Below, piece after piece: positions 400-18,444 of a stretch of DNA of 32,000 bases (the first letter of the stretch is position 1; each line of letters starts with the position of its first letter). The DNA lies in NCBI GenBank assembly GCA_002723045.1, contig PBNI01000030.1:1-32000 (forward strand), in the 5' to 3' direction. The notes under the pieces were generated by a model, which saw nothing but the letters and a program-made list of their open reading frames with translations, ran no database searches and was not told where the DNA came from. The DNA comes from Methanobacteriota archaeon. GTDB lineage: Archaea; Thermoplasmatota; Poseidoniia; Poseidoniales; Thalassarchaeaceae. The position numbers were made by a program, and so were the translations under genes.

Positions 400-2451
400 T
401 CACAACCCCCTTCTTCTGAAGAGCACTGCCAAGGAAATTGCTACTACCAGAGAGGGCACTCCCAAAGACGGCAGTGCTCCATCGACCTCATCGGCGTCAT
501 CAGGTATTTCTGGATCTACTAGTTCTTCCATCAGTAAAGCAACATCTACGGTCGTGCTAGATGAAGTGCACTTGCCGGACTGGTCACAACCTGTGACATC
601 CACATTGATGACTCCAGAGGAAAACTCACTCATATCAATCCATTCGCTCTCCCAAGTATTGCCGGAGACCATAATCTGACCAATCTCCTGTCCATCAACC
701 TCAATCGTGAAAGTCACTGGCTCGCCATCCGGATCGCTATATTGCCCACCGACTCTCCACATAGTCCCATCAAACTCTCCCATTCCACTAATGGTCATAG
801 AGGGGGCTGTGCTTTCCTTCACGATACCAATGTCGATGATATGTTGCAGAGAGAATTGGCCAACCGACACCTCCATCCAGACATTGACTGGACCGGGAAC
901 GATGCCCTGTGGACTCAGGCTCACGACCTGCTGCGGGGAATCTCCTTTTTCGAATTCCTGAATCTCACTTGGTTGTCCACCTTGACTCAGTGCTAGACGC
1001 ACAGTCACGTCTCCACCCCATGAATCTGAAAATGAGATCTTCAGGGGGTGCTGGTCTTGGAGAATTACTTCGGGCGTCGAAATTGAAACAGGGACTCCCA
1101 CGTTCCATGTTCGATTCCCACTGGACTTGCCAGAAGCATCCTTTGCTTCGCATGAAACCTCTGTTACCCCATCCACATTGATCCACATTGACCCATCGAT
1201 GCTCTGTGAAATCTCATTTCCAGCCGAATTGCAGACGACATCTAGGTTGGAAACACCAGACTCATCATCGAACCAAGATGCAATCCCTTCCCAAGATGCT
1301 AACTTGTTCGCTCCTTCCCCGACAACTGGAATCCAAGTCCCATTAACTGGTGCTAGTTGGGTCCAAGTTGGAGCCTCATCAGTCGGAATTGGCGATGTAG
1401 TGAAGTCCGCGAAGACATCCTCTCCAAGAGGCCACTTCTCTCTTGAGAAGTTTGAGTCTAGGGAATAAGTCAGGCTGCCATCGTCATTTGCCAGCAACTC
1501 ATAGCTCGCAGTCCCATCTCCTATGCAACTTCCTCTTATCGGCGCTGTGTCGGTTCCAGGATTCTCCCCATCGAGACCTACGAACCTCCCTTCGCATTCC
1601 TCCCACATGTCCATCCTCAGGTCAGGCATCACTGGGAAAGTGAAGTCCAACCTAGCATTACTCATGTTCGATGAATTGAATGCGATGGTGAAGTCATTGG
1701 GGTCCGTAACACCATCAATCACCATCGTCGCGTTTAGCCAGAGCTCAATCCTGCACTCATCAGCTCCCAAGGACTCGTTGACATCAATGTCACAATCCCT
1801 CTCAGAAGACGGAATTACTGGTATTTCTATACATCCATCTTGGCTGAAACCCTGGCAGTCCCTTGATTGTGAGTGCCTCGTGGGCACTCCGTTGAAATGC
1901 CCGATGTTGGTCTGGTCGTCCTCCCACGTGGTGTTCATCCAACTAACTCCTTCCCCCCCTCTATGAGGGGAGCCATCTCGAATCCCTATTCTAGTGATGC
2001 TATACTCCAGACAATCTGCAGCAATGGAGACCATCGCGTCTATCTCATCAGTGGAGAGCCAACCATCCCCGCCAGAGGGAACAATACCTTCCAGGAAGGC
2101 ATCTAGGTCCTCCCTGATGTCATCAGCCAGTGTCCAGTTTATCCAGGCCCTAGCATCTACCTGGGCAGATTTCCAGTCGTCATTGACACGAACCTCGAAG
2201 ATTGCTTGGTTGTAGATGAAAATATCCTCGAATGTAATGGATCCGCATTGCTCTTCTAGGGAACCGCCACTCCCAAACTGCTCCATTTTTGTTTGTTCTT
2301 TCCTCAACTCTTCCGTCGGTAGATGGAACGTCGAAAATATCAGTATTACGATGACGCAAACTGACCCTAACCCCATCATCCGCATTCCAGTCACTATTGC
2401 CTTCCGGAGACCATAGGACATCATAGTTGCCATGATTGGGAACACAATCAT
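400..2451 (-). CDS. Cell-surface protein of unknown family, with an N-terminal hydrophobic segment and a C-terminal LPSLG-helix-RRR anchor
   Basis: 683-aa ORF with an ATGA start/stop overlap with the upstream gene at 2448-2451. N-terminal segment GLGSVCVIVILIFSTF; acidic body rich in Cys and N-x-S/T; C-terminus GALPSLGVPSLVVAISLAVLFRRRGL. I recognise no domain. Confidence 0.75.
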   Translation of the reverse strand: MIVFPIMATMMSYGLRKAIVTGMRMMGLGSVCVIVILIFSTFHLPTEELRKEQTKMEQFGSGGSLEEQCGSITFEDIFIYNQAIFEVRVNDDWKSAQVDARAWINWTLADDIREDLDAFLEGIVPSGGDGWLSTDEIDAMVSIAADCLEYSITRIGIRDGSPHRGGEGVSWMNTTWEDDQTNIGHFNGVPTRHSQSRDCQGFSQDGCIEIPVIPSSERDCDIDVNESLGADECRIELWLNATMVIDGVTDPNDFTIAFNSSNMSNARLDFTFPVMPDLRMDMWEECEGRFVGLDGENPGTDTAPIRGSCIGDGTASYELLANDDGSLTYSLDSNFSREKWPLGEDVFADFTTSPIPTDEAPTWTQLAPVNGTWIPVVGEGANKLASWEGIASWFDDESGVSNLDVVCNSAGNEISQSIDGSMWINVDGVTEVSCEAKDASGKSSGNRTWNVGVPVSISTPEVILQDQHPLKISFSDSWGGDVTVRLALSQGGQPSEIQEFEKGDSPQQVVSLSPQGIVPGPVNVWMEVSVGQFSLQHIIDIGIVKESTAPSMTISGMGEFDGTMWRVGGQYSDPDGEPVTFTIEVDGQEIGQIMVSGNTWESEWIDMSEFSSGVINVDVTGCDQSGKCTSSSTTVDVALLMEELVDPEIPDDADEVDGALPSLGVPSLVVAISLAVLFRRRGL

Positions 2452-3629
2452 CCGATATGGACAATTTCCCCAGTCCAGTGGAATGCTAGAAGATCTCCAT
2501 CAAGACCCTCGCCAAAGCCAACAATCATGCCTCCGCTGGAACCAATGTAACTTTCATTCCACGAGCCGTCCACTTCTTTCAATATCCACATTGAGCCGCT
2601 GCAGAAATCCCCGTAGAGGTATCCCCCATGTAGGTCGGTAGGCCCCCAATCCATCCAGAATCCACCAGTAATTGAGCAGTTCCCACCCGAATGAGAATAG
2701 GTAGCAATAGGACCAGCGAATGCATCTCGCATGCTCTCGTTAGCCTCACTACCGCCGCACGGAGTACTACTATCCAAGAGATAATCTCCCTCCATCTCAG
2801 CCCAACCTAAGTTTGCTGGATTCTCGAGAGAAACCAGATTGACTTCCTCCCAACAATCCTGACCAACGTCCGAGATCCAGAGCCTGCCATGACTGTCCAG
2901 ATCGAACCTCCAGGGATTCCGCAATCCGTGATGAAGTACGTATGGATCTCCAACAGGGTCGTCCAGAACGGGACTCACCTCGCCATCCAGATAGCTGAAT
3001 TGTAGGATCGTCCCGAGTTCAGTGGATGGGTTCTGACCGTTTTCTTCAGGATCATAGGCGTTTCCGCCATCGCCTACCCCCCATAGGAACTGGCTTCCTC
3101 CAATGTTCAGCAAATGCCCGCCGTTGTGGTTCCTGTATGGCTGCTCGATAGATTTGAGAACTTTGATGCTAGAAACGTCTAGTTCGCCTGAGGGGCTAAT
3201 TCCAGCGGAGGAAAGGACCAGATCTGACTCGTTCGGGCCATCACAAGGTCCATCCTCGACATAAGACAGCAAAATCGTCCTATTATCGCCAAAGCCATCT
3301 GCAAAGGCCATTCCTAGAAGACCCTGCTCAACATGGCACGTGCTGACCATCGAACTCAGATCGGCTATCTCCGATATCTCTGCCCCGTCCCAAGAGTGAA
3401 TTAGTCCAGATAACTCAACTATCCATATCTCGTCATTTGTCGGATGCTTCAGGGAGGAAATAGGGCTGGAGAATCCATCCAAGTACTTGTAACAGGACAA
3501 ATTGTAACTCTCTTGGATGGAGCAATCCCAACTCTCAGGTTCGGGCCAAACGAACCCGTCTTCTTCACCAAGGCATCCAGCAAATGAGGAAGTCACAACT
3601 AGCAGCGAGATAATTGCCCAACTTCTCAT
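2448..3629 (-). CDS. PQQ-dependent (soluble glucose/sorbosone) sugar dehydrogenase-like beta-propeller lipoprotein
   Basis: 393 aa. Signal plus lipobox-like LLVVTSSFAGC. Motifs YRNHNGGHLL, HGLRNPWRFDLD and LWISDVGQDCWEEVN are typical of the GSDH/YliI family. Confidence 0.8.
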   Translation of the reverse strand: MRSWAIISLLVVTSSFAGCLGEEDGFVWPEPESWDCSIQESYNLSCYKYLDGFSSPISSLKHPTNDEIWIVELSGLIHSWDGAEISEIADLSSMVSTCHVEQGLLGMAFADGFGDNRTILLSYVEDGPCDGPNESDLVLSSAGISPSGELDVSSIKVLKSIEQPYRNHNGGHLLNIGGSQFLWGVGDGGNAYDPEENGQNPSTELGTILQFSYLDGEVSPVLDDPVGDPYVLHHGLRNPWRFDLDSHGRLWISDVGQDCWEEVNLVSLENPANLGWAEMEGDYLLDSSTPCGGSEANESMRDAFAGPIATYSHSGGNCSITGGFWMDWGPTDLHGGYLYGDFCSGSMWILKEVDGSWNESYIGSSGGMIVGFGEGLDGDLLAFHWTGEIVHIG

Positions 3630-3638
3630 CCCTAGTCC

Positions 3639-4715
3639 CTACTTCTCTAGGTAGGCGCGGATGCCGGGGACATTTGAAACTGCGTCTGAGTAGGTGCCAA
3701 GATGTTCCTCTGCCGTGCTTGCAACCATTCCAGCCGTGTTAAGAACGTCATTCAGGATCTCCCGCCCCTCGCTATCATCGTCAAGAGCCAATAGCGCGTC
3801 TTGAATCCGGAGCATCGTCTCATCATCCATCCTCGCTGGGTCATACATTACTGGATGGCTGGGTGCCTGACCGAAAGAGGGGAGCATGACAATCTCATCC
3901 CTGTCTAGGCACCAGTCGGGACCATCGGGTACGTCATCCTCGTTCTCATCGCAATACAGTCGGTATGCCGTGTCCTTAACCAGGGCAATATCTCCATGAC
4001 CAGTCATCATGCACTTCAGTGCCCCTTTGTATCCAGAGTACTGAGTCCCTCCCTCTGGAATTTCCGAATCCTTATGGAAGAAGCTCGTTACTGTAGCTCT
4101 GAGGGATTCGATTTCCTCGGGATCGCCTTGAACTTCAGCATATCCATTCCCAATCAGATAACCCATTGGTATCAGCATGCCAGCGCTCTTCAGCCAACCC
4201 GTGTGGCACGACTTCTTGCCCTCCATGAGAGCGAATGGGTCGGTGTCAGGATCATCATCAAGGTATGCGGCTGCGATGTCTGAGTCGGCCCTTACCCATG
4301 CTGCAGCGTTGTAGTAGACCCTGCCATCCGGCTTCTTCTCGACGGCGACTACGTCCAAGTCGTACACCTGGTAACCCAACCATCCGGCAGCCCCATCGAC
4401 CATCGCGATCTCTGCATTGCCATTTGCAACCGCCTCTATCGCAGCCACTTCATCAGCTACTGGGTACACTACCACTTTCTCCCCAGTCAACTCGCTGAGC
4501 TTGTCAGCCATCTCTTGTGGATTTGCATCCCAGAATAGGTATGTGTCCTTCACTTCGTAAGCAATCCTGATACAGTCCTCATCATCACCGCACTCGTCGT
4601 AATCCACTGTGAATAATGCCCATAGAACGGCAGATGATAATAGCAGCCCAACAACCGCAATCGGAATACTCCTTCCCTGTAATGCCTCTCTAACTCTGTC
4701 AATCGCTGAACTCAT
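3639..4715 (-). CDS. Transferrin-like / PhnD-superfamily substrate-binding protein with an N-terminal membrane anchor (candidate Fe(III) binding protein)
   Basis: 358 aa. TM segment [19 protein letters not shown]. Motifs [68 protein letters not shown] and AMVDGAAG. Divergent to the phnC/phnE-like genes. Confidence 0.85.
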   Translation of the reverse strand: [358 protein letters not shown]

Positions 4716-4746: not shown

Positions 4747-4762
4747 TTTAGGGTTACCTAAA
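4747..4762. promoter_or_regulatory. Palindromic operator candidate TTTAGG-GTTA-CCTAAA (DtxR/IdeR iron-box-like)
   Basis: 6-4-6 inverted repeat centred in the 77-bp divergent intergenic region. It is flanked by A/T-rich TATA-like stretches (TTAAATTT on the left, AAATAT on the right), each about 27-35 nt from the respective ATG. The 17-mer ATTTAGGGTTACCTAAA (4746-4762) recurs exactly at 10382-10398. Confidence 0.6.
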
Positions 4763-4792: not shown

Positions 4793-5464
4793 ATGCCAGC
4801 GGTAGTTAGGATTAGCCATCTGGAAGTTGGCTTCCAAGGTCATAGCCTGCTTTCCATAGATGATTTTCATGTCAATCCAGGTGAAGTTCTCGCAATTACC
4901 GGCCCCTCGGGAATTGGAAAAACATCCCTCTTGAAAACTATAGCCGGTCTTCTGAATCCAATATCTGGAACAGTTCATGTTTGTGGAGCGACAATACCCC
5001 AGAGGCCAGAAAGAGGATCTATAGGATACATCCCACAGAAGCTAGGTCTGGTCAGGCACTCTAGTGTCTGGTCCAATGTCATGCTGGGTTCGAGAGCAGG
5101 AAATCCTAGATCAACATCCAGGGAGCATGCGATGAACGCTATCGAAGCCATGGGCCTGGGGGAGAAGAAGAACGAGCCGATTAAACGACTCTCAGGCGGC
5201 CAACAGAGGAGAGTAGCTACAGCCAGGACTCTGGCCCAACGTCCAAGACTTATTTTGGCTGATGAGTTCCTAAGCGAGTTGGACGAAGAAACATCAGAAA
5301 GGGTGGTAAAATCGGTACTGGACTATGTACGATCAAACGAAGCTGCCATGATTCTAGTCGAGCACGACGTCTCTCGAGCAAGGGAGATTTCTGATAGGCT
5401 TCTGGTTATAGATGATGGAAGGCTCAACCCGTTCATCACAGATACTTCGGTCATGGAGGTGTAG
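4793..5464 (+). CDS. ABC transporter ATP-binding protein, PhnC-like
   Basis: Walker A GPSGIGKTS, signature LSGGQQRR, Walker B LILADE, H-loop VEHD. I prefer ATG 4793 (MPAVVRISHLEV) over the TTG at 4736, because the extension would cover the operator and promoter. Confidence 0.85.
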   Translation: MPAVVRISHLEVGFQGHSLLSIDDFHVNPGEVLAITGPSGIGKTSLLKTIAGLLNPISGTVHVCGATIPQRPERGSIGYIPQKLGLVRHSSVWSNVMLGSRAGNPRSTSREHAMNAIEAMGLGEKKNEPIKRLSGGQQRRVATARTLAQRPRLILADEFLSELDEETSERVVKSVLDYVRSNEAAMILVEHDVSRAREISDRLLVIDDGRLNPFITDTSVMEV

Positions 5465-5488
5465 TTTTGGCAAAAATTTTGGCAAAAA
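5465..5488 (+). repeat. Perfect 12-nt tandem duplication TTTTGGCAAAAA x2 at the phnC stop / phnE start junction
   Basis: Read directly from the sequence. It encodes MAKI-LAKI and supplies two in-frame TTG codons (5467, 5479). Confidence 0.9.
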
Positions 5489-6330: not shown

Positions 6331-6558
6331 CTAGTAGTCTGCGACGATTCTGATGGCTCCACCGTCATAGAAGATCTGAATGTGATCCTTGGCCTTCGAG
6401 GAGAGGGCTGCCAGTGCCTCGTAGACTTCCTTCTCCTTGACGTTGAAAGCTTCCGCGGCCCTCTTCGTAGACCACGCAACTTCAACAAAGTCCGACGCGG
6501 AAATCCACTTCAGTAGCCTGGCCTCGAAGTCTGTAAGTTCACCCAGTGCCATAGTCAC
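6331..6558 (-). CDS. Small (75 aa) possible winged-helix DNA-binding protein
   Basis: ORF only. The helix-turn-helix-like stretch TKRAAEAFNVKEKEVYEALAALS is followed by a beta-hairpin-like IQIFYDGGAIRIV. I recognise no family. Confidence 0.45.
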   Translation of the reverse strand: MTMALGELTDFEARLLKWISASDFVEVAWSTKRAAEAFNVKEKEVYEALAALSSKAKDHIQIFYDGGAIRIVADY

Positions 6559-10425: not shown

Positions 10426-10441
10426 TTTAGGGTGCCCTAAA
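10426..10441. promoter_or_regulatory. Third box, perfect 7-2-7 palindrome TTTAGGG-TG-CCCTAAA, abutting the lipoprotein ATG
   Basis: Read directly; it ends 1 nt before ATG 10442. Confidence 0.55.
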
Positions 10442-11695: not shown

Positions 11696-11706
11696 GAGTA
11701 ACGTTG

Positions 11707-11759
11707 GCGGGGGGCGCATCACCCCAGCATCATTTTCGGTTTCCGCAAACCGGCCCCCC
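11707..11759 (+). terminator. Nested hairpin downstream of the lipoprotein gene
   Basis: Outer stem CGGGGGG (11707-11713) / CCCCCCG (11753-11759). Inner stem CGGTTT (11736-11741) / AAACCG (11746-11751) with loop CCGC. T4 tract at 11732-11735. Confidence 0.35.
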
Positions 11760-11815
11760 GTCAACAACACACCTATACTAGAACAGGAATATTGAACGAA
11801 ATTTTCGGTGTAAGG

Positions 11816-14164
11816 ATGAGAATAGGAATACTGCTTGTATCTATATTACTGATTTCCTTTATCTCTCCAGTAAGTACTTCCGAAGAAACCGAACAACAGA
11901 CGTTCACCCTTTCTGGAAACGTATTCTCCTCTAGTGGTAATCCTGCAAATTCGACTTCGATAAAGGTTGACTCCATGGAGTCAACATGGTCCTCCAACGG
12001 GGCTTACTCATTCGCGGGCATCACTCCGGGAGAGCACACCGTCAGAGCCTACTTCATGAATGATGGACACACTGTGGTGTACAGGAAGATAATTGTAGAA
12101 TCCGACATGGAACTTGATTGGTACGAGGGAAGAAATTGGATTACATTCGAAGTTTTAGAAGATGATACGAACATCCAAGATTCAGAACTCAACACAGTCG
12201 AACTGATTGAGACATCTGAGAATATTTCAACTCAGTCAGGAAGGGGTGAGTTCGGGCCATACCAAATTGGAGAATACTTCACACTGATGGCATACTACGG
12301 AGGAATTGACCAGTCCACGCAGTTTGTTCACTTCAGGATGGAAGCCGGATCTTCTTCAGAACACGGCCCTAATGATTTTCATTTCAATCATGGAAAGAAT
12401 AGTAGGTATGGCTTTCTGACCGATTTATATGGAAACCCCATCGAGGGAGCTTCCGTTATTTACGGATCAACTAGCTCGATAACAAACTCAGATGGATTCT
12501 TCCTTTTCCAGAATCTAGATGTCGGCACCATTCAGAACTTATCTGCTTCTAAATGGGGGTACCAAATAGTTGATCCGATTAGTACCGAGATTACGCACGG
12601 ACAAGGTTGGCTGAACATCACCTCGACAGTAGAGACAAACTTGCCCGACTACGCAAATTTCACCACTCAAATCATTACATCCCAACTGGAACAGATCACT
12701 ATTGATTGGAGTGGTGGGGCATATACTGATTTCTACTCCCTATACCTAGGGGAAGAGCTAGTTTACAGAGGTGAGATGGAGAGTTTTGATTTCCTACCCG
12801 AACAGTCAGGAAACTATCAATTCAGAATTGAATCGACAAATTCTAACGGCTCTAAGATCAATCCAAAGGATTTGCAGGTCATCGTTCTACCTAGCCAACC
12901 AAACTCCGATTTGTGGTCTCCGGGTATGAGTTGGAATTACTCTCTCGTTTCTACTCCAGAATTCTATCAAAACAAGACCTATACCTCGATTGGATCAGAG
13001 TCAATACTGGATTCATTCGGTAACAATCGCTCCTCGTATCTCCTCAGGGTTTCGGACGAAGACTACGAGGAGGGGGAGAAGGCCTTCCGATGGGTGGACT
13101 CGGAGGGCCTCATGACCATTCACACCTTCTGGGCAGATGCCCCTTCGTCGTCTTCTTACTACCAGGAGGGTTTCCTGGGTTGGAACTTCACAGATTCAAC
13201 AGGAATTCCAGTGAACCCCCTCCATCAAGTTGCAGACGGTGAACTCAATCTTCACTTCAATCGGACAAACATTATCGGAGTCCCTGGCCATCCAAACGGC
13301 TACGATGATACCACTAATTCTGTGATTGTAACTCATGGAGTCGAACTAACTACTGCTGCAGGCACATTCACCACGACTCATCTGGAAATCACTGACAACA
13401 ACGATGGCATCGTATCTTGGGAGATGTGGTACAATGAGACGGTTAGGAACTGGGTCAAGATCATAGATAGACTACCAGGTTCTCACTCAGACATGGTTAT
13501 CCGGGAGTTGACCTCATTCGAGGTCCCAATCACCCCCCAATTCATTACTGAAGATAATAGAAACTTTTCCGATGACGATGTAGAGATAGAATGGGCACAA
13601 TTCCCAGGGGCTCAGAGATACAAACTAATTGAGAACGGGCAAGTTGTATACATTGGAGAAGACTCTAGAATAAACCTCCCCAATAGACAGGACGGAGAGT
13701 ACAATTTCCAGATTATTGCAGAGATGACAACTGGTCAGATCATTCAAGGAGAAAAAATTTCTATTGAGGTATTCTTTGTTCTAGAACCCCCTGTATTTCT
13801 TTCCAATTCACATTCTACAATAACCTCGGATGAGTCAATCGTGACTTGGTCATCTGTGGAAGGAAGAGCCATGTATACCGTTTTGGTAATGCCAGAAGAC
13901 GGCCCATCTTACGAAGCATACAATGGTTACGAGAATCAGACATTGCTGGAGGATCTAGACACAGGAATCAATAGAATTCGGGTGAAGGCAACTCTGGAAA
14001 ACGGTAAGGCTTCAGAATTTTCAGACTCGATTTTCATCACATTCGAAAGGTCAGAGGACAACCTCCCCTCCCCATCAGCTCTTTCCACGCTCCTCCTCCT
14101 TGTTTTCGTATCCAGATTTTCAACAACAAGGAGGAATGAAAGTTGGCAACACGATCTAAAATAG
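11816..14164 (+). CDS. Cell-surface protein with carboxypeptidase-regulatory-like and FN3-like repeats and a C-terminal LPSPS-helix-RR anchor
   Basis: ATG 11816 is preceded by GGTGTAAGG. Signal MRIGILLVSILLISFISPVSTS. CarboxypepD_reg-like segments FTLSGNVFSSSGNPANS...GAYSFAGITPGEHTV and GFLTDLYGNPIEGASVIYG...SDGFFLFQNLDVG. Three FN3-like units (IDWSGGAYTDFYSLY.., VEIEWAQFPGAQRYKL.., IVTWSSVEGRAMYTVL..). Its 3' end overlaps the next gene by 22 nt. Confidence 0.75.
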   Translation: MRIGILLVSILLISFISPVSTSEETEQQTFTLSGNVFSSSGNPANSTSIKVDSMESTWSSNGAYSFAGITPGEHTVRAYFMNDGHTVVYRKIIVESDMELDWYEGRNWITFEVLEDDTNIQDSELNTVELIETSENISTQSGRGEFGPYQIGEYFTLMAYYGGIDQSTQFVHFRMEAGSSSEHGPNDFHFNHGKNSRYGFLTDLYGNPIEGASVIYGSTSSITNSDGFFLFQNLDVGTIQNLSASKWGYQIVDPISTEITHGQGWLNITSTVETNLPDYANFTTQIITSQLEQITIDWSGGAYTDFYSLYLGEELVYRGEMESFDFLPEQSGNYQFRIESTNSNGSKINPKDLQVIVLPSQPNSDLWSPGMSWNYSLVSTPEFYQNKTYTSIGSESILDSFGNNRSSYLLRVSDEDYEEGEKAFRWVDSEGLMTIHTFWADAPSSSSYYQEGFLGWNFTDSTGIPVNPLHQVADGELNLHFNRTNIIGVPGHPNGYDDTTNSVIVTHGVELTTAAGTFTTTHLEITDNNDGIVSWEMWYNETVRNWVKIIDRLPGSHSDMVIRELTSFEVPITPQFITEDNRNFSDDDVEIEWAQFPGAQRYKLIENGQVVYIGEDSRINLPNRQDGEYNFQIIAEMTTGQIIQGEKISIEVFFVLEPPVFLSNSHSTITSDESIVTWSSVEGRAMYTVLVMPEDGPSYEAYNGYENQTLLEDLDTGINRIRVKATLENGKASEFSDSIFITFERSEDNLPSPSALSTLLLLVFVSRFSTTRRNESWQHDLK

Positions 14165-15237
14165 CCATTTTCCAGTCAGGCATCATCTTTCTATGTGCTA
14201 TTGGGGCATGGCAGTTTTCATCCATTATCTCCGAAACCGATGAATCTGGGTCAATTTCTGTAGTTGATTCCAACGGTGTAGGGCACTTCTTTGATGAATC
14301 TCCAGATAGAGTTGTTCTGACAAATACTTACGCTGCGAGCGTGATGAGAATGTTGGGGATAGACAACTCCGTGATTGTTGGAGTATCTGGCGACTTCTAC
14401 GACGAGACTCTGTGGCCAGAACTCTCTCAAAGGGATATGGTACAGCAATCTGCACATTCTGAGATTGATTTCGAGGCGCTCTTGGATTCCCGACCGGACG
14501 TCTACATCGTTTTCGCAACAAATGGAATGGTCGATACCAATGCAATCAGAGAGAAACTTGAACCTGTAGGGATTAGAGTCCTAGCCCTGGATTTCTACAA
14601 GTACGATTCACTAAGAATAGAGATTGGGGTGATGGCAGAGTTATTTGGCAAGCAAGTAGAGGCCGAGACACTGTTTTCTGAGTTTGACACTATCGAGGCC
14701 CTAGTCACAAACCGAACTTCACAGCTCACAGAATCTCAGAGGCCGATTGTAGTTATGGAGCACCATGCATCACTAACTCGAGATCCCGTGGTTCTAACTG
14801 GCACTTCTCAATGGACCGACATGATACACAAGGCAGGCGCGAAAAACGTGTTCGCCGATCTCCCAGGGCATACCACCCATGTAGACATGGAAGCGATTCT
14901 GGATGCAAACCCCGACGTGCTAATGTTCGATGGAATCGTTTTCGACATCGGATTCAATTCCTTCGACAATGAAAGTAAATGCGATACCCATTTCGATTTC
15001 ATCAAAGAGAGGCCCGGTTTCGACAACCTAAACGCCGTTAGCAACGATCGAATGGCTATAATGTCGGGAGAATTTGCAGGCCCAATGATGATTCATGGCC
15101 TCCCAACTCTAGCCAAACTAATCCATCCAGAGATTTTTTCTGATATCGACGCTGACTACTTCCTGGACGAATATTTCTCCAATTACCATGGAATCGAAAG
15201 AATGGGGAAGTTCGTTTGTACTTCAGGGGGCGACTAA
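14143..15237 (+). CDS. ABC substrate-binding protein, cluster A-2 (FecB/HmuT/BtuF type; Fe-siderophore, haem or corrinoid)
   Basis: TTG start 8 nt after a strong AGGAGG (14129-14134). N-terminal anchor IAIFQSGIIFLCAIGAW. PDRVVLTNTYAASVMRMLGI...SRPDVYIVF...IRVLALDF is typical of the Peripla_BP_2 family. Confidence 0.8.
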   Translation: MATRSKIAIFQSGIIFLCAIGAWQFSSIISETDESGSISVVDSNGVGHFFDESPDRVVLTNTYAASVMRMLGIDNSVIVGVSGDFYDETLWPELSQRDMVQQSAHSEIDFEALLDSRPDVYIVFATNGMVDTNAIREKLEPVGIRVLALDFYKYDSLRIEIGVMAELFGKQVEAETLFSEFDTIEALVTNRTSQLTESQRPIVVMEHHASLTRDPVVLTGTSQWTDMIHKAGAKNVFADLPGHTTHVDMEAILDANPDVLMFDGIVFDIGFNSFDNESKCDTHFDFIKERPGFDNLNAVSNDRMAIMSGEFAGPMMIHGLPTLAKLIHPEIFSDIDADYFLDEYFSNYHGIERMGKFVCTSGGD

Positions 15238-15240
15238 GCA

Positions 15241-16278
15241 ATGGAAACGATATCAGAGAAACATATTGCAAACTCGAAATTTCAGATTTTAATGATTGCC
15301 GCACTATCCCTCGCCACACTCATTTTCGCACTACTGGCAATGGGGTGGGGGTCATCTTCAAACCTTGACATGACGGCAACAATGAGAATCCTCCTTGGTT
15401 TGGATGAAGCAGATGATTTACAGTCAGACATTCTTTGGAAACTAAGACTCCCAAGGATATTGATGGCAATTATCGCGGGAGTGGCTCTTGCTACTGCTGG
15501 AGCACTAATGCAAGGCTGCCTAGGAAACCCACTCGTCTCCCCTCTGACTCTTGGAGTGGCTTCTGGTGCTGCTTTAGGGGCCGCATTCGCCATTATTCTG
15601 GATTTTTCTGTCCTACCAGACTTGGCAATAGTGGCGAACTCCTTTCTTTTCTCATTACTTGTCGTCGGAATAATAATTCAACTAGGAAAAATGCGATCCA
15701 TTTCCGCTGAATCCTATATTTTAGTTGGTATTGCAATCACTTTCATTGCAGGTGCCATCGTTTCGACAATGCAGTACTTTGCCACAGATGCACAACTATC
15801 TCAATTGACACATTGGTCATTCGGAAGCCTATCAAGACCAACTCTTTCCAATGTAATTTGGATAGGGGCAGCAGTGGTATCTCTGTTGCCAATGGCAATG
15901 TTGTGGTCTTGGGATTTGAATGCGATGTCCTTGGGGGGGGATGACTTTGCCATCTCCACTGGAGTAGATCCCGAATCTACTAGGAAGAACATACTGATCC
16001 TCTCAGCCTTGATGACATCAATAGTGATCTCGTTTACTGGACTGATTGGATTTGTAGGACTAGCCGCGCCGCACATGAGTCGCCTGATCATTGGTAATGA
16101 CTACAGGAAATTGATACCATGCTCCGCTGTCTTCGGAGCTTTCCTGATGCTCTTTGCAGATACCGTCGGAAGAATTCTATTCGCACCAATTGTGATTCCC
16201 GTGGGAATAATGCTATCCATAATCGGTGGGCCACTTTTTATGTATCTTCTACTGAAGTATAGGGGGGCGGGGTTCTGA
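15241..16278 (+). CDS. FecCD-family ABC permease (HmuU/BtuC-like)
   Basis: LRLPRILMAIIAGVALATAGALMQGCLGNPLVSPLTLGVASGAALGAA is the family signature; multi-TM. Confidence 0.9.
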   Translation: METISEKHIANSKFQILMIAALSLATLIFALLAMGWGSSSNLDMTATMRILLGLDEADDLQSDILWKLRLPRILMAIIAGVALATAGALMQGCLGNPLVSPLTLGVASGAALGAAFAIILDFSVLPDLAIVANSFLFSLLVVGIIIQLGKMRSISAESYILVGIAITFIAGAIVSTMQYFATDAQLSQLTHWSFGSLSRPTLSNVIWIGAAVVSLLPMAMLWSWDLNAMSLGGDDFAISTGVDPESTRKNILILSALMTSIVISFTGLIGFVGLAAPHMSRLIIGNDYRKLIPCSAVFGAFLMLFADTVGRILFAPIVIPVGIMLSIIGGPLFMYLLLKYRGAGF

Positions 16279-17060
16279 CAAGTTTACTTCAGGTAAAGGA
16301 TCTAAGTTTTAGATGGGGCGATAGAGAAGTTCTAAGGAATATAAATTTCGAAGTTGAGCCAAATCAGACAATAGCCATCCTTGGAAAAAATGGAGTCGGG
16401 AAAACCACATTGATCAAATGCCTCAACCGAGTCCTAATTCCTCATTCAGGAACCGTCAAATTTTCTTCACGAGATATTTCAGAAATGAGTCTAATGGAAC
16501 TATCCAAAATGTCTTCTTATGTCCCACAATCAGTCAGAACCAGCTTTTCAATGGACGTTTTTGATGTTGTTCTTCTCGGCCGGAGGCCACATATCTCGTG
16601 GAGAGTTTCATCAGAGGATAGAGAAGCAGTTAGCCGCACTCTGAGTCTTCTGGGACTGGAGGAATTTGCCTTCAGAAAGTTCGACAAACTTTCTGGTGGA
16701 GAGAGGCAGAGAGTAATAGTTGCCAAGGCTGTAGCACAAGACCCCTCCCTCTTTCTTTTCGATGAACCGACCAGTGACCTAGATTTACGAAATCAGATTG
16801 AGGTAATGAAGAGAATAGTCGAGATTGTTTCAGATAAAAAATCTGAGAAATCTGCTATTGTTTCCATTCATGATATCAATATAGCAGCAAGATTCTCTGA
16901 AAGAATTATCCTATTGCACGAAGGAGAAGTAAAGGCAGATGGTTCTCCATCAGACGTCCTAAACGAAGACAATATTGCAGAAGTATTCGGAGTAACTTGC
17001 GAAATCGTAGACCAAACAGATGACTCGCCAATGAGGGTCTTGATCAAAGATGAGGTGTAG
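16275..17060 (+). CDS. ABC ATP-binding protein (FecE/HmuV-like) with a non-canonical or disrupted start
   Basis: The frame is open from 16263 and encodes ..LLQVKDLSFRWGDREVLRNINFEVEPNQTIAILGKNGVGKTTL. The first in-frame ATG/GTG/TTG is TTG 16410, after Walker A. CTG 16275 overlaps the permease TGA (cTGA). Signature LSGGERQR, Walker B LFLFDEP, H-loop SIHD. Confidence 0.8.
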   Translation: MTSLLQVKDLSFRWGDREVLRNINFEVEPNQTIAILGKNGVGKTTLIKCLNRVLIPHSGTVKFSSRDISEMSLMELSKMSSYVPQSVRTSFSMDVFDVVLLGRRPHISWRVSSEDREAVSRTLSLLGLEEFAFRKFDKLSGGERQRVIVAKAVAQDPSLFLFDEPTSDLDLRNQIEVMKRIVEIVSDKKSEKSAIVSIHDINIAARFSERIILLHEGEVKADGSPSDVLNEDNIAEVFGVTCEIVDQTDDSPMRVLIKDEV

Positions 17061-17115
17061 TAGAAGGATATTATGAAAAATTGGCACATTGGTCCTAGCA
17101 GAAATAGAATAGAAA

Positions 17116-17595
17116 ATGGAGAAGAAAAGAGGCAATAAAATGAGAGATAGAAACTTGCTAGTAATTTTTGGAACAGAGACTGGAAACGCTGAGGAGTTGG
17201 CCGAAGACGCGGCCATTATGGCAGCAAAGCATGATCTTGAAGCCAGCGTAATGGATATGGAGGACATAACTCCAGATGATATCTCAGGTTCGAAGAGATT
17301 GATTGTTGTATGCAGCACTTGGGGTGAAGGGGAGCAACCCGTTAACGCCCAAGATTTGTACGATTCAGTCTCCGAATCTGACGACACTGCCATGGAAGGA
17401 GTTAATTTTGGAGTCCTAGCCCTCGGAGACACGGCATTCGAGTTCTTTTGCGAGTCGGGAAAGGAATGGGATTCAATACTCGAAGAGAAAGGCGGAACGC
17501 GGATCAAGGAGAGAATTGACTGTGATACTGACTATGATGACTATGCAGAAGAATGGATACAAGAAACTCTCCAAATATTGAAGGAAATCGAATAG
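17116..17595 (+). CDS. Flavodoxin
   Basis: LLVIFGTETGNAEELAED (FMN phosphate loop), VVCSTWGEGEQP, GVLALGDTAFEFFCESGK. Alternative start ATG 17140. Confidence 0.8.
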   Translation: MEKKRGNKMRDRNLLVIFGTETGNAEELAEDAAIMAAKHDLEASVMDMEDITPDDISGSKRLIVVCSTWGEGEQPVNAQDLYDSVSESDDTAMEGVNFGVLALGDTAFEFFCESGKEWDSILEEKGGTRIKERIDCDTDYDDYAEEWIQETLQILKEIE

Positions 17596-17607
17596 GAGAT
17601 ATGGAAA

Positions 17608-18444
17608 ATGAGCGAGAAAGAAAATGGCGGATCAAGTATACCCAGACATGCACCTCCAAAGGGAGCCAGAACACAAGAACAAGAACTCCTCTATGACCCA
17701 AATATTCCGACTCCCACTCACTCAGAGTTGGCGAGAACAATGGTTAGCAAGATTGGCACAGGCACCTTGTGCACAATGTCTACTGAGCCAGATGGGTATC
17801 CCTATGGTTCGTTCGTCACCTTTGCAATCCTTGAAGGGAACCCAATCTTCCTGATTAGCTCTCTAGCTGAGCACACCAAGAACCTCACTGCCTCTTCCAA
17901 GTCCTCGCTACTAGTCGCGGAAGCGGGTGAAGGAAACCCCCTTGCTCTGGGTAGGGTAACACTCATTGGAGACTGCTCAAGACTGTCCGACGGAGAGGTT
18001 GACTCAGCTAGGATTGAATTCCTGGAAAAGCATGAAAGTGCCTCATTCTACGTAGATTTCAAAGATTTTCATTTTTACAGATTGCAAGTCTCCTCCGTTA
18101 GGTACATTGGTGGTTTTGGCAGAATGTCATGGGTCGACGAGCAGAGTTGGTTTGAAGCAGAGTCTGACCCCCTCTCTCCTTTCTCGAATGACATTATTGA
18201 ACATATGAACGAAGATCACAGAGATGCAATGATGATTTGCTGCCAGAATCTCAGTAAAGCAAAAGATGCCTCAGATGCAGTAATGACTGGTATTGACAGA
18301 TACGGGTTTGAGATGTCTGCAATTACTTCTGACGGCCCAAGGCCAATCAGGCTAGCATTCAGAAACGAGGCAACGAATTCCGAGGAAGCAAGGTCAGAGA
18401 TAGTCTCATTGGTTAAGGATGCTAGAAAAATTTCAGAGACATAG
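17608..18444 (+). CDS. HugZ/HOZ-like protein: pyridoxamine-5'-phosphate-oxidase-like split barrel plus a DUF2470-like C-terminal domain (candidate haem-degrading or haem-binding)
   Basis: ARTMVSKIGTGTLCTMSTEPDGYPYGSFVTFAILEGNPIFLISSLAEHTKNL (split-barrel N-terminal part). IIEHMNEDHRDAMMICCQ...MTGIDRYGFEM (DUF2470-like). GGAG lies upstream of the ATG. Confidence 0.55.
   Translation: MSEKENGGSSIPRHAPPKGARTQEQELLYDPNIPTPTHSELARTMVSKIGTGTLCTMSTEPDGYPYGSFVTFAILEGNPIFLISSLAEHTKNLTASSKSSLLVAEAGEGNPLALGRVTLIGDCSRLSDGEVDSARIEFLEKHESASFYVDFKDFHFYRLQVSSVRYIGGFGRMSWVDEQSWFEAESDPLSPFSNDIIEHMNEDHRDAMMICCQNLSKAKDASDAVMTGIDRYGFEMSAITSDGPRPIRLAFRNEATNSEEARSEIVSLVKDARKISET

What the first reader, a model, noticed from the sequence alone, without database searches (positions are those of the whole stretch)
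2448..18444. About 16 kb of contiguous iron- and haem-related genes: a candidate iron-acquisition supercluster
Genes with a plausible iron link occur in sequence across this stretch. They are a transferrin-like binding protein with a PhnC/E-type ABC pair, a two-lobe transferrin-like lipoprotein, ferrochelatase, an uncharacterised lipoprotein behind iron-box-like operators, and a FecB/FecCD/FecE-type ABC importer led by an anchored surface protein. Flavodoxin (the classic low-iron substitute for ferredoxin) and a HugZ-like protein follow. Individually most of these are ordinary. Their clustering, together with a shared palindromic operator in two of the promoters, suggests one regulon for Fe(III) and haem scavenging. 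I am not aware of such a system being characterised in planktonic archaea.
Basis: partly seen in the sequence, partly recalled or inferred. Interest (0 to 1): 0.75.

Follow-up and report, generated by a model that had tools for sequence, protein, structure and literature searches.

The report
Archaeal transferrin-like iron uptake island
This stretch of a Marine Group II (Poseidoniales) archaeal genome is most likely an iron-acquisition island: a transporter usually annotated as a phosphonate transporter has a binding protein that carries the iron site of animal transferrin, and it shares a conserved DNA operator with a relative of algal low-iron (FEA1) proteins.

Summary
HMM searches confirm the genes, and the "uncharacterised lipoprotein" is a FEA1-related lipoprotein, the family that includes the algal low-iron protein ISIP2a. 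The 16-nt box is real. TTAGG-N4-CCTAA occurs 167 times in 1.38 Mb from 88 related loci, against about 0.4 expected. It lies upstream of the transferrin-like binding-protein gene in 72 of 74 cases and upstream of FEA1 in 31 of 31. It follows these genes through rearrangements and never precedes neighbours such as GpsA.

The single-lobe binding protein is about 30% identical to the human transferrin N-lobe. It keeps Asp-Tyr-Tyr-His, the anion-site Thr and one transferrin disulfide in 84 of 84 relatives. Its family profile hits only transferrins among the 60 best solved structures (5e-36).

The best reading is a carbonate-assisted Fe(III) ABC importer plus accessory iron proteins, controlled by a DtxR-box-like operator.

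The "one regulon" idea is only partly supported. The surface-protein/Fec-type importer and the HugZ-like (HOZ) gene form an accessory insertion found in six related loci. It has no box and its cargo is unresolved, with haem favoured. The window's two-lobe protein has degenerate iron sites, and the flavodoxin is MioC/CysJ-like.

No paper in the searchable library describes this system. MGII genomics calls it phosphonate transport. No biochemistry exists.

The parts
400..2451 (-). 683-aa secreted, C-terminally anchored protein of unknown function. It is the third gene of the transferrin-like operon.
   Evidence: It overlaps the GSDH-like gene by 4 nt. It has no Pfam or NCBIfam family. Relatives occur in 47 related loci, and the operator lies upstream wherever this gene comes first in its unit.
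2448..3629 (-). GSDH-like (PQQ sugar dehydrogenase fold) beta-propeller lipoprotein. It is the second gene of the operon.
   Evidence: Pfam GSDH 66 bits. Only distant matches to soluble glucose dehydrogenase and HHIP in the PDB, at about 1e-6. It lies next to the transferrin-like gene in nearly all MGIIb loci.
3639..4715 (-). Single-lobe transferrin-like substrate-binding protein, held in the membrane by an N-terminal helix. Predicted to be the Fe(III)/carbonate receptor of the ABC importer.
   Evidence: Pfam Transferrin and Phosphonate-bd. The best PDB sequence matches are all transferrins. D, Y, Y, H, T and the C118-C194 disulfide are conserved in 84 of 84 relatives. Type II binding-protein fold.
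4747..4762 (.). Operator box A, TTTAGGGTTACCTAAA. It sits midway between the divergent start codons at 4715 and 4793.
4793..5464 (+). PhnC-like ABC ATPase (223 aa from the ATG at 4793).
   Evidence: ABC_tran domain. Best NCBIfam match is PhnC, at 132 bits against a cutoff of 266. Start codon taken.
5467..6327 (+). PhnE-family ABC permease.
   Evidence: TIGR01097 PhnE at 216.8 bits against a cutoff of 216.7.
6331..6558 (-). Conserved 75-aa ORF of unknown function, convergent with PhnE. It marks the left edge of the variable island.
   Evidence: Conserved at 44-98% identity in MGIIa and MGIIb. No family or PDB match.
6650..8557 (+). Two-lobe transferrin/PhnD-like lipoprotein with degenerate metal sites.
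   Evidence: Two domains. At the six transferrin site columns, lobe 1 has D,Y,T,D,Y,N and lobe 2 has D,S,A,S,T,R. No box upstream.
8819..9259 (+). DUF454 (YbaN-like) membrane protein, convergent with and overlapping ferrochelatase.
   Evidence: Pfam DUF454 122 bits. It travels with HemH in relatives.
9243..10334 (-). Ferrochelatase (HemH), divergent from FEA1.
   Evidence: Pfam 308 bits; TIGR00109 at 232 bits against a cutoff of 125. The box lies within 250 bp upstream in 6 of 7 loci.
10383..10398 (.). Operator box B1.
   Evidence: Paired boxes about 43 bp apart precede FEA1 in most relatives.
10426..10441 (.). Operator box B2, directly abutting the FEA1 start codon.
10442..11695 (+). FEA1-related lipoprotein (Fea1/ISIP2a family). 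The predicted fold is all-alpha.
   Evidence: NF038033 at 368 bits; Pfam Fea1 at 68 bits. AlphaFold model with pLDDT 84 and no PDB fold match. Bacterial relatives lie next to FbpA-type ferric transporters.
11703..11765 (+). Conserved GC-rich hairpin at the 3' end of FEA1. It is terminator-like, and the accessory module is inserted just downstream of it.
   Evidence: -33.7 kcal/mol, z = -4.1. The stem is conserved in L002 and L001 while the loop differs.
11816..14164 (+). Anchored surface protein with Ig-like/CarboxypepD_reg domains. First gene of the accessory module.
   Evidence: Its end overlaps the start of the next gene. In relatives it is found only together with the Fec-type genes.
14143..15237 (+). 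Peripla_BP_2 (FecB/IsdE/BtuF class) binding protein. Ligand unresolved.
15241..16278 (+). FecCD-family permease.
   Evidence: Pfam FecCD 276 bits. It matches BtuC, FhuB and FecCD models, all below their cutoffs.
16272..17060 (+). ABC ATPase of the Fec/Hmu/Btu class. It is intact, with a non-canonical start.
17116..17595 (+). Short flavodoxin-fold FMN protein (MioC/CysJ-like).
   Evidence: In 15 related loci it lies next to FEA1 or the transferrin-like gene.
17608..18444 (+). HOZ-family (homologue of HugZ) haem-binding split-barrel protein with a DUF2470 domain.
   Evidence: PDB 5bnc 'heme binding protein MSMEG_6519' at 1e-47; AtHOZ1 at 2e-32. Family described in PMC11602992.

Best explanation
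The region is a variable iron-acquisition island of a Marine Group II (Poseidoniales, MGIIb) archaeon. Its core works as follows.

1. A membrane-anchored, single-lobe transferrin homologue binds Fe(III) through Asp, two Tyr and His. A synergistic (bi)carbonate is held by Thr, Lys and a helix N-terminus.
2. It delivers the iron to a PhnE/PhnC-type ABC importer that descends from phosphonate transporters.
3. A FEA1-related lipoprotein is a further member of the same control circuit. So are a GSDH-like beta-propeller lipoprotein and a 683-aa surface protein, both co-transcribed with the binding protein. They probably concentrate or process iron at the cell surface.
4. A dimeric repressor, not yet identified, binds TTTAGG-N4-CCTAAA operators. 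This sequence has the half-site and spacing of one DtxR/IdeR dimer site. The operators overlap the promoters of the units that start with the transferrin-like gene, PhnC and FEA1. The repressor would shut these units off when iron is sufficient.
5. In this genome the island also carries an accessory module downstream of the FEA1 terminator. It consists of a surface protein, a Fec-type ABC importer, a small flavodoxin and a HOZ haem-binding protein. It most likely imports haem and releases its iron.

Shown here: homology, site conservation, operator conservation and synteny. Inferred: Fe(III) binding, the synergistic anion, repression by iron, and haem as the cargo.
For: Transferrin identity
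- Pfam Transferrin is above its threshold.
- Single-sequence and profile searches of the PDB return only transferrins in the top 60. The best values are 2e-18 and 5e-36. No PhnD, PtxB or AioX appears there.
- The protein is 29-30% identical to the human transferrin N-lobe, against 17% to E. coli PhnD.
- D63, Y188, H249, T120 and the C118-C194 disulfide are kept in 84 of 84 relatives, and Y95 in 83 of 84.

Iron context
- The neighbouring lipoprotein is a FEA1-family member.
- In relatives, the same operator also precedes a Dps/ferritin operon and an M28-ZIP (ZupT-like) transporter gene.
- Bacterial FEA1-related lipoproteins lie next to FbpA/HitA-type ferric binding proteins (8e-74 to 7w3w) and FbpB-like permeases.

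Operator
- 167 sites in 1.375 Mb, against 0.4 simulated.
- It lies upstream of the transferrin-like gene in 72 of 74 cases, FEA1 in 31 of 31, and PhnC-like genes in 38 of 50. The other 12 PhnC-like genes follow the binding protein in the same operon.
- It precedes GpsA in 0 of 25 cases and the S15 peptidase in 0 of 10.
- The arms are invariant and the 4-nt spacer varies freely. It is present in both MGII families.
- It equals positions 1-14 of the DtxR consensus TTAGGTTAGCCTAACCTAA (PMC7762939).

Synteny
- The same gene set recurs, in a different order, in lineages whose binding protein is 59-60% identical.

Haem module
- The HOZ protein matches a haem-binding protein at 1e-47.
- It is the last gene of the Fec-type transporter operon in the window, L015 and L082. 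In L007, L060 and L062 it sits, with flavodoxin, in the transferrin-like operon.
Against: - No protein of this archaeal family has been tested biochemically.
- By Pfam the Phosphonate-bd model scores higher than Transferrin (86 against 56 bits). The permease just reaches the PhnE cutoff.
- The predicted fold matches PtxB, AioX and PhnD as well as it matches transferrin.
- The anion-site Arg is Lys in all members.
- A GDPD-like phosphodiesterase gene lies immediately upstream of the binding-protein gene in 42 related loci, and GpsA is a frequent neighbour. Both hint at phosphorus metabolism.
- No DtxR-family gene, nor any other regulator, was found in the window or the loci.
- The same palindrome also occurs in other organisms in front of unrelated genes such as glycosyltransferases.
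- DtxR-family regulators and ZIP transporters can serve Mn or Zn rather than Fe.
- The Fec-type module has no box. Its subunits score equally poorly against haem, siderophore, corrinoid and F420-0 models.
Confidence: 0.68

Rival explanations
1. The core is what the annotations say: a PhnCDE-type importer for phosphonates or another phosphorus oxyanion. The iron genes nearby are coincidental occupants of a variable island.
For: - Pfam Phosphonate-bd is the top hit, at 86 bits.
- PhnE just reaches its equivalog cutoff, and PhnC is the best ATPase match.
- Foldseek ranks PtxB and AioX level with transferrin.
- A GDPD-like gene lies upstream of the binding-protein gene in 42 loci, and GpsA is nearby.
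- MGII genomics lists phosphonate transport as a core trait (PMC6336850).
Against: - The binding protein fails the PhnD equivalog badly: 23.6 bits against a cutoff of 261.
- Its family profile finds only transferrins among the top 60 solved structures.
- Five of the six transferrin site residues are kept, and only one of the six matches the PhnD pattern.
- No C-P lyase, phosphonatase or PhnY/Z gene appears in the window or in any annotated neighbourhood.
- The operator links it to FEA1, ferritin and ZIP genes.
Confidence: 0.12
2. The operator and importer belong to a regulon for a different metal, manganese or zinc. The regulator would be MntR-like or another DtxR-family protein, and the transferrin-like protein would bind that metal.
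For: - DtxR-family regulators include Mn sensors, and DtxR is activated in vitro by several divalent metals.
- The regulon member found in three relatives is ZupT-like, a family named for zinc.
- Transferrins bind many metals, as shown by PDB entries with Ti, Bi, Cr, Al and Ru.
Against: - The Asp-Tyr-Tyr-His plus anion site is the hard-ligand set typical of Fe(III).
- Ferritin/Dps, ferrochelatase, FEA1, a HOZ haem protein and a Fec-type importer all point to iron.
- Bacterial FEA1 relatives pair with FbpA ferric binding proteins.
Confidence: 0.08
3. For the accessory module only (11816-17060 and 17608-18444): it imports a corrinoid or a ferric siderophore rather than haem. The HOZ protein would then be a haem sensor or chaperone unrelated to the cargo.
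For: - The best NCBIfam matches for the permease and the ATPase are BtuC and a corrinoid ATPase, both below cutoff.
- The closest PDB relatives of the binding protein are generic iron/siderophore binding proteins at about 1e-15.
- Some HOZ proteins are non-enzymatic haem sensors (PMC11602992).
- The surface protein has no NEAT or other known haem-receptor domain.
Against: - HOZ is the terminal gene of this transporter operon in the window and in the L015/L082 arrangement. In L007, L060 and L062 it lies in the same cluster, inside the transferrin-like operon.
- In every related locus the module is placed inside the iron island, next to FEA1 or flavodoxin.
Confidence: 0.35
4. The palindrome is a general promoter element or a mobile repeat, not a regulator-binding site.
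For: - Its A/T-rich flanks overlap TATA-like sequences.
- It also occurs in unrelated high-GC contigs before varied genes.
Against: - In 1.375 Mb of Poseidoniales DNA, 159 of 167 copies lie within 250 bp upstream of the same few gene families. The other eight also lie next to such genes.
- None precedes GpsA or the S15 peptidase, and only one precedes flavodoxin.
- Invariant arms with a free 4-nt spacer are the signature of a dimeric DNA-binding protein.
Confidence: 0.04

Closest known systems
Eukaryotic transferrins (serum transferrin, lactoferrin, ovotransferrin; Pfam PF00405)
   Same: - About 30% sequence identity to a transferrin lobe.
- The same type II binding-protein fold.
- The same Asp-Tyr-Tyr-His ligands.
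- The same anion-site Thr and helix N-terminus.
- The conserved C118-C194 disulfide and the CHTG...SAG...IP.G motif.
   Different: - Single lobe, anchored by an N-terminal membrane helix.
- Encoded next to an ABC permease and ATPase, so it would hand iron to a transporter rather than to a receptor with endocytosis.
- The anion-site Arg is Lys.
- Most transferrin disulfides are absent.
- It is archaeal.
PhnCDE phosphonate ABC transporter (and the PtxB/HtxB/AioX oxyanion binding proteins)
   Same: The permease is PhnE-family, the ATPase is closest to PhnC, and the binding protein has the same fold and matches Pfam Phosphonate-bd.
   Different: - The binding protein is far below the PhnD cutoff.
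- It carries the transferrin residues, not the PhnD residues, in the ligand pocket.
- No phosphonate catabolism genes are linked.
- It is co-regulated with iron genes.
FbpABC/HitABC/FutABC ferric-ion ABC importers ('bacterial transferrins')
   Same: The proposed job is the same: a periplasmic or surface binding protein captures free Fe(III) with Tyr ligands and a synergistic anion and feeds an ABC permease. In bacteria, FEA1-related lipoproteins lie beside such systems.
   Different: FbpA belongs to a different binding-protein family (SBP_bac_6/8) and resembles transferrin by convergence. The MGII protein is a sequence homologue of transferrin itself, and its permease is PhnE-type rather than FbpB-type.
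FEA1 (Chlamydomonas) and ISIP2a/phytotransferrin (diatoms)
   Same: The window protein is a member of the same Pfam family (PF07692) and of NCBIfam 'FEA1-related lipoprotein'. It is surface-exposed and lies in an iron context. A green-algal multi-repeat homologue scores 1e-77.
   Different: It has a single domain and is a prokaryotic lipoprotein. It is linked to an ABC importer rather than to endocytosis or FTR1/FOX1. The predicted fold is an all-alpha bundle with no transferrin-like features.
DtxR/IdeR iron boxes
   Same: TTAGG-N4-CCTAA is identical in half-site and spacing to positions 1-14 of the DtxR consensus TTAGGTTAGCCTAACCTAA. It is positioned over promoters, as a repressor site would be.
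   Different: It is a 16-bp site for a single dimer, not the 19-bp overlapping double palindrome. No DtxR-family gene was found nearby, and the regulator is unknown.
Haem uptake loci of monoderm bacteria (Isd/Hta/Hmu with IsdG or HugZ-type degraders)
   Same: The arrangement is alike: an anchored surface protein, a Peripla_BP_2 binding protein, a FecCD permease, an ATPase, and a HugZ-homologue (HOZ) haem-binding protein.
   Different: There are no NEAT or HtaA domains. The subunits are below every haem equivalog cutoff. The HOZ domain order (barrel, then DUF2470) follows MSMEG_6519 and plant HOZ, not H. pylori HugZ. The ligand is untested.

Membership tests
Transferrin family (PF00405) | Family HMM matched above the curated threshold | tested here: met
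   56.2 bits against a cutoff of 20.3 for 3639-4715, and 68.9 bits for the two-lobe protein. The family profile scores 5e-36 against lactoferrin.
Transferrin family (PF00405) | Iron ligands Asp63, Tyr95, Tyr188 and His249 (human N-lobe numbering) | tested here: met
   D in 84 of 84, Y in 83 of 84, Y in 84 of 84 and H in 84 of 84 single-lobe relatives, and in the window protein. Not met by the window's two-lobe protein.
Transferrin family (PF00405) | Synergistic-anion site: Thr120, Arg124 and the helix N-terminus (Ala126-Gly127) | tested here: inconclusive
   Thr in 84 of 84, Ala in 83 of 84 and Gly in 84 of 84 are kept, but Arg124 is Lys in 84 of 84.
Transferrin family (PF00405) | Two homologous lobes in one chain | tested here: not met
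   The operator-controlled binding protein has a single lobe. Two-lobe forms with both sites complete do exist in other MGII lineages, for example P0007 and P0010.
Transferrin family (PF00405) | Reversible Fe(III) binding that depends on carbonate | not testable with these tools
   This needs purified protein.
PhnCDE phosphonate transporter | Binding protein reaches the PhnD equivalog score | tested here: not met
   TIGR03431 at 23.6 bits against a cutoff of 261.1; TIGR01098 at 38 bits against 112.
PhnCDE phosphonate transporter | Permease and ATPase reach the PhnE and PhnC equivalog scores | tested here: inconclusive
   PhnE scores 216.8 against 216.7, exactly at threshold. PhnC scores 132.1 against 266.1, below threshold.
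PhnCDE phosphonate transporter | Linked phosphonate catabolism genes (C-P lyase, PhnWX, PhnYZ) | tested here: not met
   None in the window or in the annotated 20-kb neighbourhoods L001-L008. The rest of the genome was not seen.
FEA1/ISIP2a family (PF07692; NF038033) | Family HMMs matched above the curated thresholds | tested here: met
   Pfam at 68.1 bits against 25; NCBIfam at 367.8 bits against 250.
FEA1/ISIP2a family (PF07692; NF038033) | Induced by iron deficiency and binds iron | not testable with these tools
   The only evidence is indirect: the operator lies upstream in 31 of 31 loci, and bacterial relatives lie next to FbpA.
DtxR/IdeR-regulated operator | Palindrome with TTAGG/CCTAA half-sites at the DtxR spacing | tested here: met
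   TTAGG-N4-CCTAA equals positions 1-14 of TTAGGTTAGCCTAACCTAA.
DtxR/IdeR-regulated operator | Full 19-bp double palindrome, and a DtxR-family repressor in the genome | tested here: not met
   The conserved element is 16 bp. There is no DtxR homologue in the window or in 88 loci. The whole genome was not available.
Haem ABC uptake system with a HugZ-type degrader | Subunits reach the haem-specific equivalog scores (IsdE, haem ATPase, HugZ) | tested here: not met
   IsdE at 37.6 bits against 298.7; haem ATPase at 163 against 261; HugZ at 70 against 240.
HOZ (homologue of HugZ) haem-binding split-barrel family | Full-length similarity to structurally characterised haem-binding members | tested here: met
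   5bnc (MSMEG_6519) at 1e-47 over residues 33-273; AtHOZ1 at 2e-32; PtHOZ1 (9bl1) at 9e-32.
Flavodoxin as ferredoxin substitute (long-chain FldA/IsiB) | Reaches the long-chain flavodoxin model score | tested here: not met
   TIGR01752 at 37.7 bits against 146.75. The best similarity is to the CysJ FMN domain and to MioC. The Flavodoxin_1 fold itself is matched, at 102 bits.

The most novel reading that the evidence does not exclude
Poseidoniales encode prokaryotic members of the transferrin family proper. These include forms with two complete lobes. They work as substrate-binding proteins of ABC importers.

They would be the missing functional link between PhnD-type oxyanion binding proteins and eukaryotic transferrin. 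The alternative is an ancient transfer of the gene in one direction or the other.

They would give one of the ocean's most abundant archaeal groups a carbonate-dependent route for taking up inorganic Fe(III). That route would be comparable to diatom phytotransferrin uptake and, like it, sensitive to seawater carbonate chemistry. The 'phosphonate transport' listed as a core MGII trait would then in fact be iron transport.
Probability: 0.35. Interest if true: 0.85.

Novelty: new variant of a known kind. Interest (0 to 1): 0.72.

Why it matters
Marine Group II archaea are among the most abundant heterotrophs in the surface ocean, they are uncultured, and nothing is known about how they obtain iron.

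- If the reading is right, a trait recorded as phosphonate transport in MGII genomics is really Fe(III) uptake. That changes how these organisms are placed in both the iron and the phosphorus budgets.
- It would show that transferrin, long treated as a eukaryotic invention, has close functional relatives in archaea that feed ABC transporters.
- The order-wide operator gives a ready sequence marker for an iron-responsive regulon in an uncultured lineage.
- The variable content of the island (ferritin, ZIP, ferrochelatase, haem module) gives a genomic readout of adaptation to different iron regimes.
- All of this can be tested directly with recombinant protein and existing metatranscriptomes.

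Tried and rejected
- **Exact-sequence look-up of a window protein.** Not on record, so the source contig was not identified. The closest relatives are L009 and L010, whose binding protein is 96-97% identical.
- **Fold comparison to separate transferrin from PhnD.** The two tie at about 1e-12, so this was uninformative.
- **The 75-aa ORF as a possible regulator.** It has no Pfam, NCBIfam or PDB match, so it is left as unknown.
- **Search for a DtxR homologue with the C. diphtheriae sequence.** Nothing in the window or loci.
- **Metagenome-wide scan for GTTTAGG-N4-CCTAAAC to widen the regulon.** Most of the 120 hits were chance matches in unrelated organisms. The MGII-like hits only re-found known members, plus one more ZIP-like gene. 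High-GC contigs with several boxes put the motif before an FbpA-like binding protein but also before glycosyltransferases, so nothing was concluded from them.
- **Search for a box or any shared motif upstream of the surface-protein/Fec module.** None was found, apart from a one-mismatch box in L015.
- **The idea that the ATPase at 16410 is truncated.** Rejected, because the reading frame with the Walker A motif continues upstream.
- **The idea that the FEA1-like protein has a transferrin fold.** Rejected for this protein, because the confident model is all-alpha.
- **McQuaid et al. 2018.** The paper could not be read. Its conclusion is cited only through a review.
- **An error of mine.** My first PhnC query was one base out of frame. 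I redid it and use only the corrected counts.

Full report
**What is in the window**

ORF listing and HMM scans give this map.

| Coordinates | Strand | Gene |
|---|---|---|
| 400-2451 | - | 683-aa secreted and anchored protein with no family |
| 2448-3629 | - | GSDH-like beta-propeller lipoprotein |
| 3639-4715 | - | Binding protein matching both Pfam Phosphonate-bd and Transferrin |
| 4793-5464, 5467-6327 | + | PhnC-like ATPase and PhnE-family permease |
| 6331-6558 | - | Conserved 75-aa ORF |
| 6650-8557 | + | Two-lobe transferrin/PhnD-like lipoprotein |
| 8819-9259 | + | DUF454 |
| 9243-10334 | - | Ferrochelatase |
| 10442-11695 | + | Lipoprotein matching NCBIfam 'FEA1-related lipoprotein' (368 bits, cutoff 250) and Pfam Fea1 |
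| 11816-14164 | + | Anchored surface protein with Ig-like domains |
| 14143-17060 | + | Peripla_BP_2, FecCD and an ABC ATPase |
| 17116-17595 | + | Small flavodoxin-fold protein |
| 17608-18444 | + | CREG/PNPOx plus DUF2470 protein |

An S15 peptidase, GpsA and a 2196-aa subtilase/RCC1 giant protein follow.

The ATPase is not truncated, because its Walker A motif lies upstream of the listed TTG. The organism is a Marine Group II archaeon. The nearest genome-collection relatives, at 96-97% identity for the binding protein, are Candidatus Poseidoniales and Thalassarchaeaceae MAGs.

**The box**

TTTAGGGTTACCTAAA occurs exactly at 4747 and 10383, and TTTAGGGTGCCCTAAA at 10426. Chance expectation is 0.13. 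There is no further copy in the window even with two mismatches. Box A lies midway between the divergent start codons of the binding protein (4715) and PhnC (4793). Boxes B1 and B2 lie between ferrochelatase and FEA1, and B2 abuts the FEA1 ATG.

I collected 88 related loci, 1.375 Mb in all. Eight came from exact-protein look-ups and 80 are species-level genome loci. In these, TTAGG-N4-CCTAA occurs 167 times, against 0.4 in second-order Markov simulations.

- 159 of the 167 lie within 250 bp upstream of the same few genes.
- The box precedes the transferrin-like gene in 72 of 74 cases and FEA1 in 31 of 31, usually as a pair of boxes about 43 bp apart.
- It precedes ferrochelatase in 6 of 7 cases, where that gene is divergent from FEA1.
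- It precedes PhnC-like genes in 38 of 50 cases. In the other 12 the ATPase simply follows the binding protein in one operon.
- It never precedes GpsA (0 of 25), the S15 peptidase (0 of 10) or the Fec-type genes (0 of 6). It precedes flavodoxin once in 15 cases.

The arms, and the flanking T and A, are invariant or nearly so, while the four central bases vary freely. This is the signature of a dimeric DNA-binding protein.

The box moves with its genes when the gene order changes. In L001 it precedes the binding-protein gene, FEA1 and a fused PhnC-PhnE gene, all in new positions. It is present in both MGII families. The element equals positions 1-14 of the DtxR consensus 5'-TTAGGTTAGCCTAACCTAA-3' (PMC7762939). 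I did not find the regulator itself.

**The binding protein is a transferrin homologue**

- A phmmer search of the PDB returns only transferrins, lactoferrins and ovotransferrins among the best 60 matches (best 2e-18).
- A profile of 14 diverse MGII members raises this to 5e-36, still with no PhnD, PtxB or AioX in the top 60.
- Aligned to the human N-lobe, the window protein is 29-30% identical over 279 columns.
- Across 84 single-lobe relatives (49-93% identical to the window protein), Asp63 is D in 84 of 84, Tyr95 is Y in 83 of 84, Tyr188 is Y in 84 of 84 and His249 is H in 84 of 84.
- The anion-site Thr120 is kept in 84 of 84, Ala126 in 83 of 84 and Gly127 in 84 of 84. Arg124 is Lys in all 84. 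Lys206 is kept.
- The transferrin disulfide C118-C194 is conserved in 84 of 84.
- E. coli PhnD has G, Y, G, S, H and D in the six site columns and is only 17% identical.
- The AlphaFold model (pLDDT 74) has the type II binding-protein fold. It matches PtxB, AioX and PhnD as well as it matches transferrins, all near 1e-12, so the fold does not discriminate.
- NCBIfam rejects PhnD identity: 23.6 bits against a cutoff of 261. The permease sits exactly on the PhnE cutoff.

I read this as a PhnCDE-derived transporter whose binding protein has the transferrin iron site.

**Independent links to iron**

- In L001, L041 and L042 a Dps/ferritin gene lies in an operon that shares the boxed divergent promoter with FEA1.
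- In L038, L063 and L068 a fusion of an M28 peptidase-like domain with a ZupT-like ZIP transporter has a box 44-58 bp upstream.
- FEA1-related lipoproteins also occur in marine bacteria such as SAR202, Chloroflexi and Acidimicrobiia. In two bacterial contigs they lie beside an FbpA/HitA-type ferric binding protein (8e-74 to PDB 7w3w, with the NHYY motif) and an FbpB-like double permease.
- So in bacteria the FEA1 relative partners a classical Fe(III) ABC importer. In MGII the same position is taken by the transferrin-like/PhnCE system.

**Synteny and the nature of the 'supercluster'**

The operon of binding protein, GSDH-like protein and 683-aa protein is nearly universal in MGIIb. So is the PhnC-PhnE pair, which is followed by the convergent 75-aa ORF.

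Between that small ORF and GpsA lies a variable island. Its content in relatives is:

- L009 and L012 (binding protein 93-96% identical): flavodoxin only.
- L010 and L013: the two-lobe protein, FEA1, flavodoxin and S15.
- L002-L004 and L011: the above plus DUF454 and ferrochelatase.
- L015, L018 and L082: the surface-protein/Fec-type module, with or without HOZ.

The window carries the fullest set seen.

In L007, L060 and L062 the binding protein is only 59-60% identical. The same families are all present within 12 kb, in a different order: FEA1, surface protein, Fec-type genes, GSDH-like protein, PhnCE, HOZ, flavodoxin and the transferrin-like gene. Recurrence despite rearrangement argues for functional coupling.

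Regulation is another matter. FEA1 ends in a strong hairpin (-33.7 kcal/mol, z = -4.1). Its stem is conserved in L002 and L001. Homology between the window and L002 ends just after the hairpin, where the accessory module begins. That module has no box and no motif shared across lineages. 'One regulon' is therefore shown for the Fe(III) core and not for the haem-like module.

**The accessory module**

The 278-aa protein belongs to the HOZ family. It matches the haem-binding protein MSMEG_6519 at 1e-47 over its full length, and the Arabidopsis and poplar HOZ1 proteins at about 1e-32. [quoted passage not shown]

It is the last gene of the transporter operon in the window and in L015 and L082. In L007, L060 and L062 it sits with flavodoxin inside the transferrin-like operon. 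The transporter subunits fall below every specific cutoff, whether for haem, hydroxamate, dicitrate, corrinoid or F420-0. I favour haem, at roughly 55-60%, but siderophore or corrinoid uptake is not excluded.

The flavodoxin resembles MioC and the CysJ FMN domain rather than long-chain FldA. I think a reductase-partner role is more likely than replacement of ferredoxin.

**The two-lobe protein and FEA1**

The window's two-lobe lipoprotein has D,Y,T,D,Y,N in lobe 1 and D,S,A,S,T,R in lobe 2, and has no box. Its role is open. Other MGII lineages do encode two-lobe proteins in which both lobes carry the full site.

The FEA1-like protein gives a confident model from a 93-sequence alignment (pLDDT 84, pTM 0.81). 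The model is an all-alpha bundle with no significant PDB match, and it is not a binding-protein fold. Whatever it does, it does not work as a structural transferrin.

**What argues against the iron reading**

- Nothing has been measured.
- Phosphonate-bd is the stronger Pfam hit.
- A GDPD-like gene lies just upstream of the binding-protein gene in 42 loci.
- The anion-site Arg is replaced by Lys.
- The regulator is unknown.
- The same palindrome occurs in other organisms before unrelated genes.
- DtxR-type regulators and ZIP transporters can serve other metals.

I put the phosphonate rival at about 0.12 and another-metal regulon at about 0.08.

**Literature**

None found a paper that links MGII/Poseidoniales with transferrin-like or FEA1-type iron uptake. 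[quoted passage not shown] A review reports that McQuaid et al. (2018) traced ISIP2a and transferrin to phosphonate-binding periplasmic proteins, but I could not read the original paper. Database names for these proteins range from 'PhnD/SsuA/transferrin family substrate-binding protein' to 'melanoma-associated antigen p97'.

**Verdict**

The finding is a new variant of a known kind of system: an Fe(III) ABC importer under a metal-repressor operator. It is notable because the receptor is a true transferrin homologue in an abundant, uncultured archaeal order, because a published core trait is probably mis-assigned, and because the operator defines a testable regulon.

Noticed in passing
P0007, P0010, P0012, P0017, P0023 (relatives found); compare window 6650-8557: Some MGII lineages encode two-lobe transferrin-like proteins in which both lobes keep the full D-Y-T-K-Y-H set. 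This is an independent lobe duplication that parallels eukaryotic transferrin. The window's own two-lobe protein is degenerate.
   Followed up: partly
L038 7607-9928; also L063 and L068: A 773-aa fusion of an M28 peptidase-like ectodomain with a ZupT-like ZIP metal transporter has the operator 44-58 bp upstream. In L038 it lies directly before the transferrin-like gene.
   Followed up: partly
window 10442-11695 (model m90ec7164ce3b): The FEA1-family domain is confidently predicted as an all-alpha bundle with no solved structural relative. It does not have a periplasmic-binding-protein fold. This sits awkwardly with the proposal that Fea1/ISIP2a domains share an origin with transferrin.
   Followed up: partly
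42 related loci, e.g. L023 9179-9757, L005 9365-9940, L007 9339-9911; absent from the window: A short (~190 aa) GDPD-like phosphodiesterase gene lies immediately upstream of the transferrin-like gene. In some lineages it shares an operon with ferritin. It has no obvious iron role and is the main hint towards phosphorus metabolism.
   Followed up: partly
window 6331-6558 (-): A conserved 75-aa ORF has no detectable family. It is always convergent with PhnE in both MGII families and marks the left boundary of the variable island, with GpsA as the right boundary.
   Followed up: partly
window 11703-11765: A strong hairpin (-33.7 kcal/mol) follows the FEA1 stop codon. Its stem is conserved in L002 and L001 while the loop differs. 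The accessory-module insertion starts just downstream of it.
   Followed up: yes
window 18460-20244 (-): The S15 (X-Pro dipeptidyl-peptidase family) lipoprotein gene is inverted relative to its orientation in L002, L010 and L011. The HOZ gene is inserted next to it.
   Followed up: no
L124 (4 copies), L148 (3 copies), L153/L157/L177 (pairs 28 bp apart): The same TTTAGG-N4-CCTAAA palindrome occurs in several copies in contigs from unrelated organisms, some of them high in G+C. It lies before an FbpA-like binding protein but also before glycosyltransferases and a DUF3793 gene. A related regulator family may therefore be widespread and not always linked to iron.
   Followed up: partly
window 21485-28075 (-): A 2196-aa protein combines an S8 subtilase domain with about 13 RCC1 repeats and with ephrin-receptor-like and thrombospondin type 3 repeats. 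It is conserved next to GpsA in close relatives.
   Followed up: no
window 144-398 (-): A small Gar1-like protein (H/ACA RNP component; weak match, E = 0.006) follows the 683-aa surface-protein gene in 40 related loci and in the window. In relatives it has an Arg/Gly-rich tail. It looks like a housekeeping gene embedded at the edge of the iron operon.
   Followed up: partly
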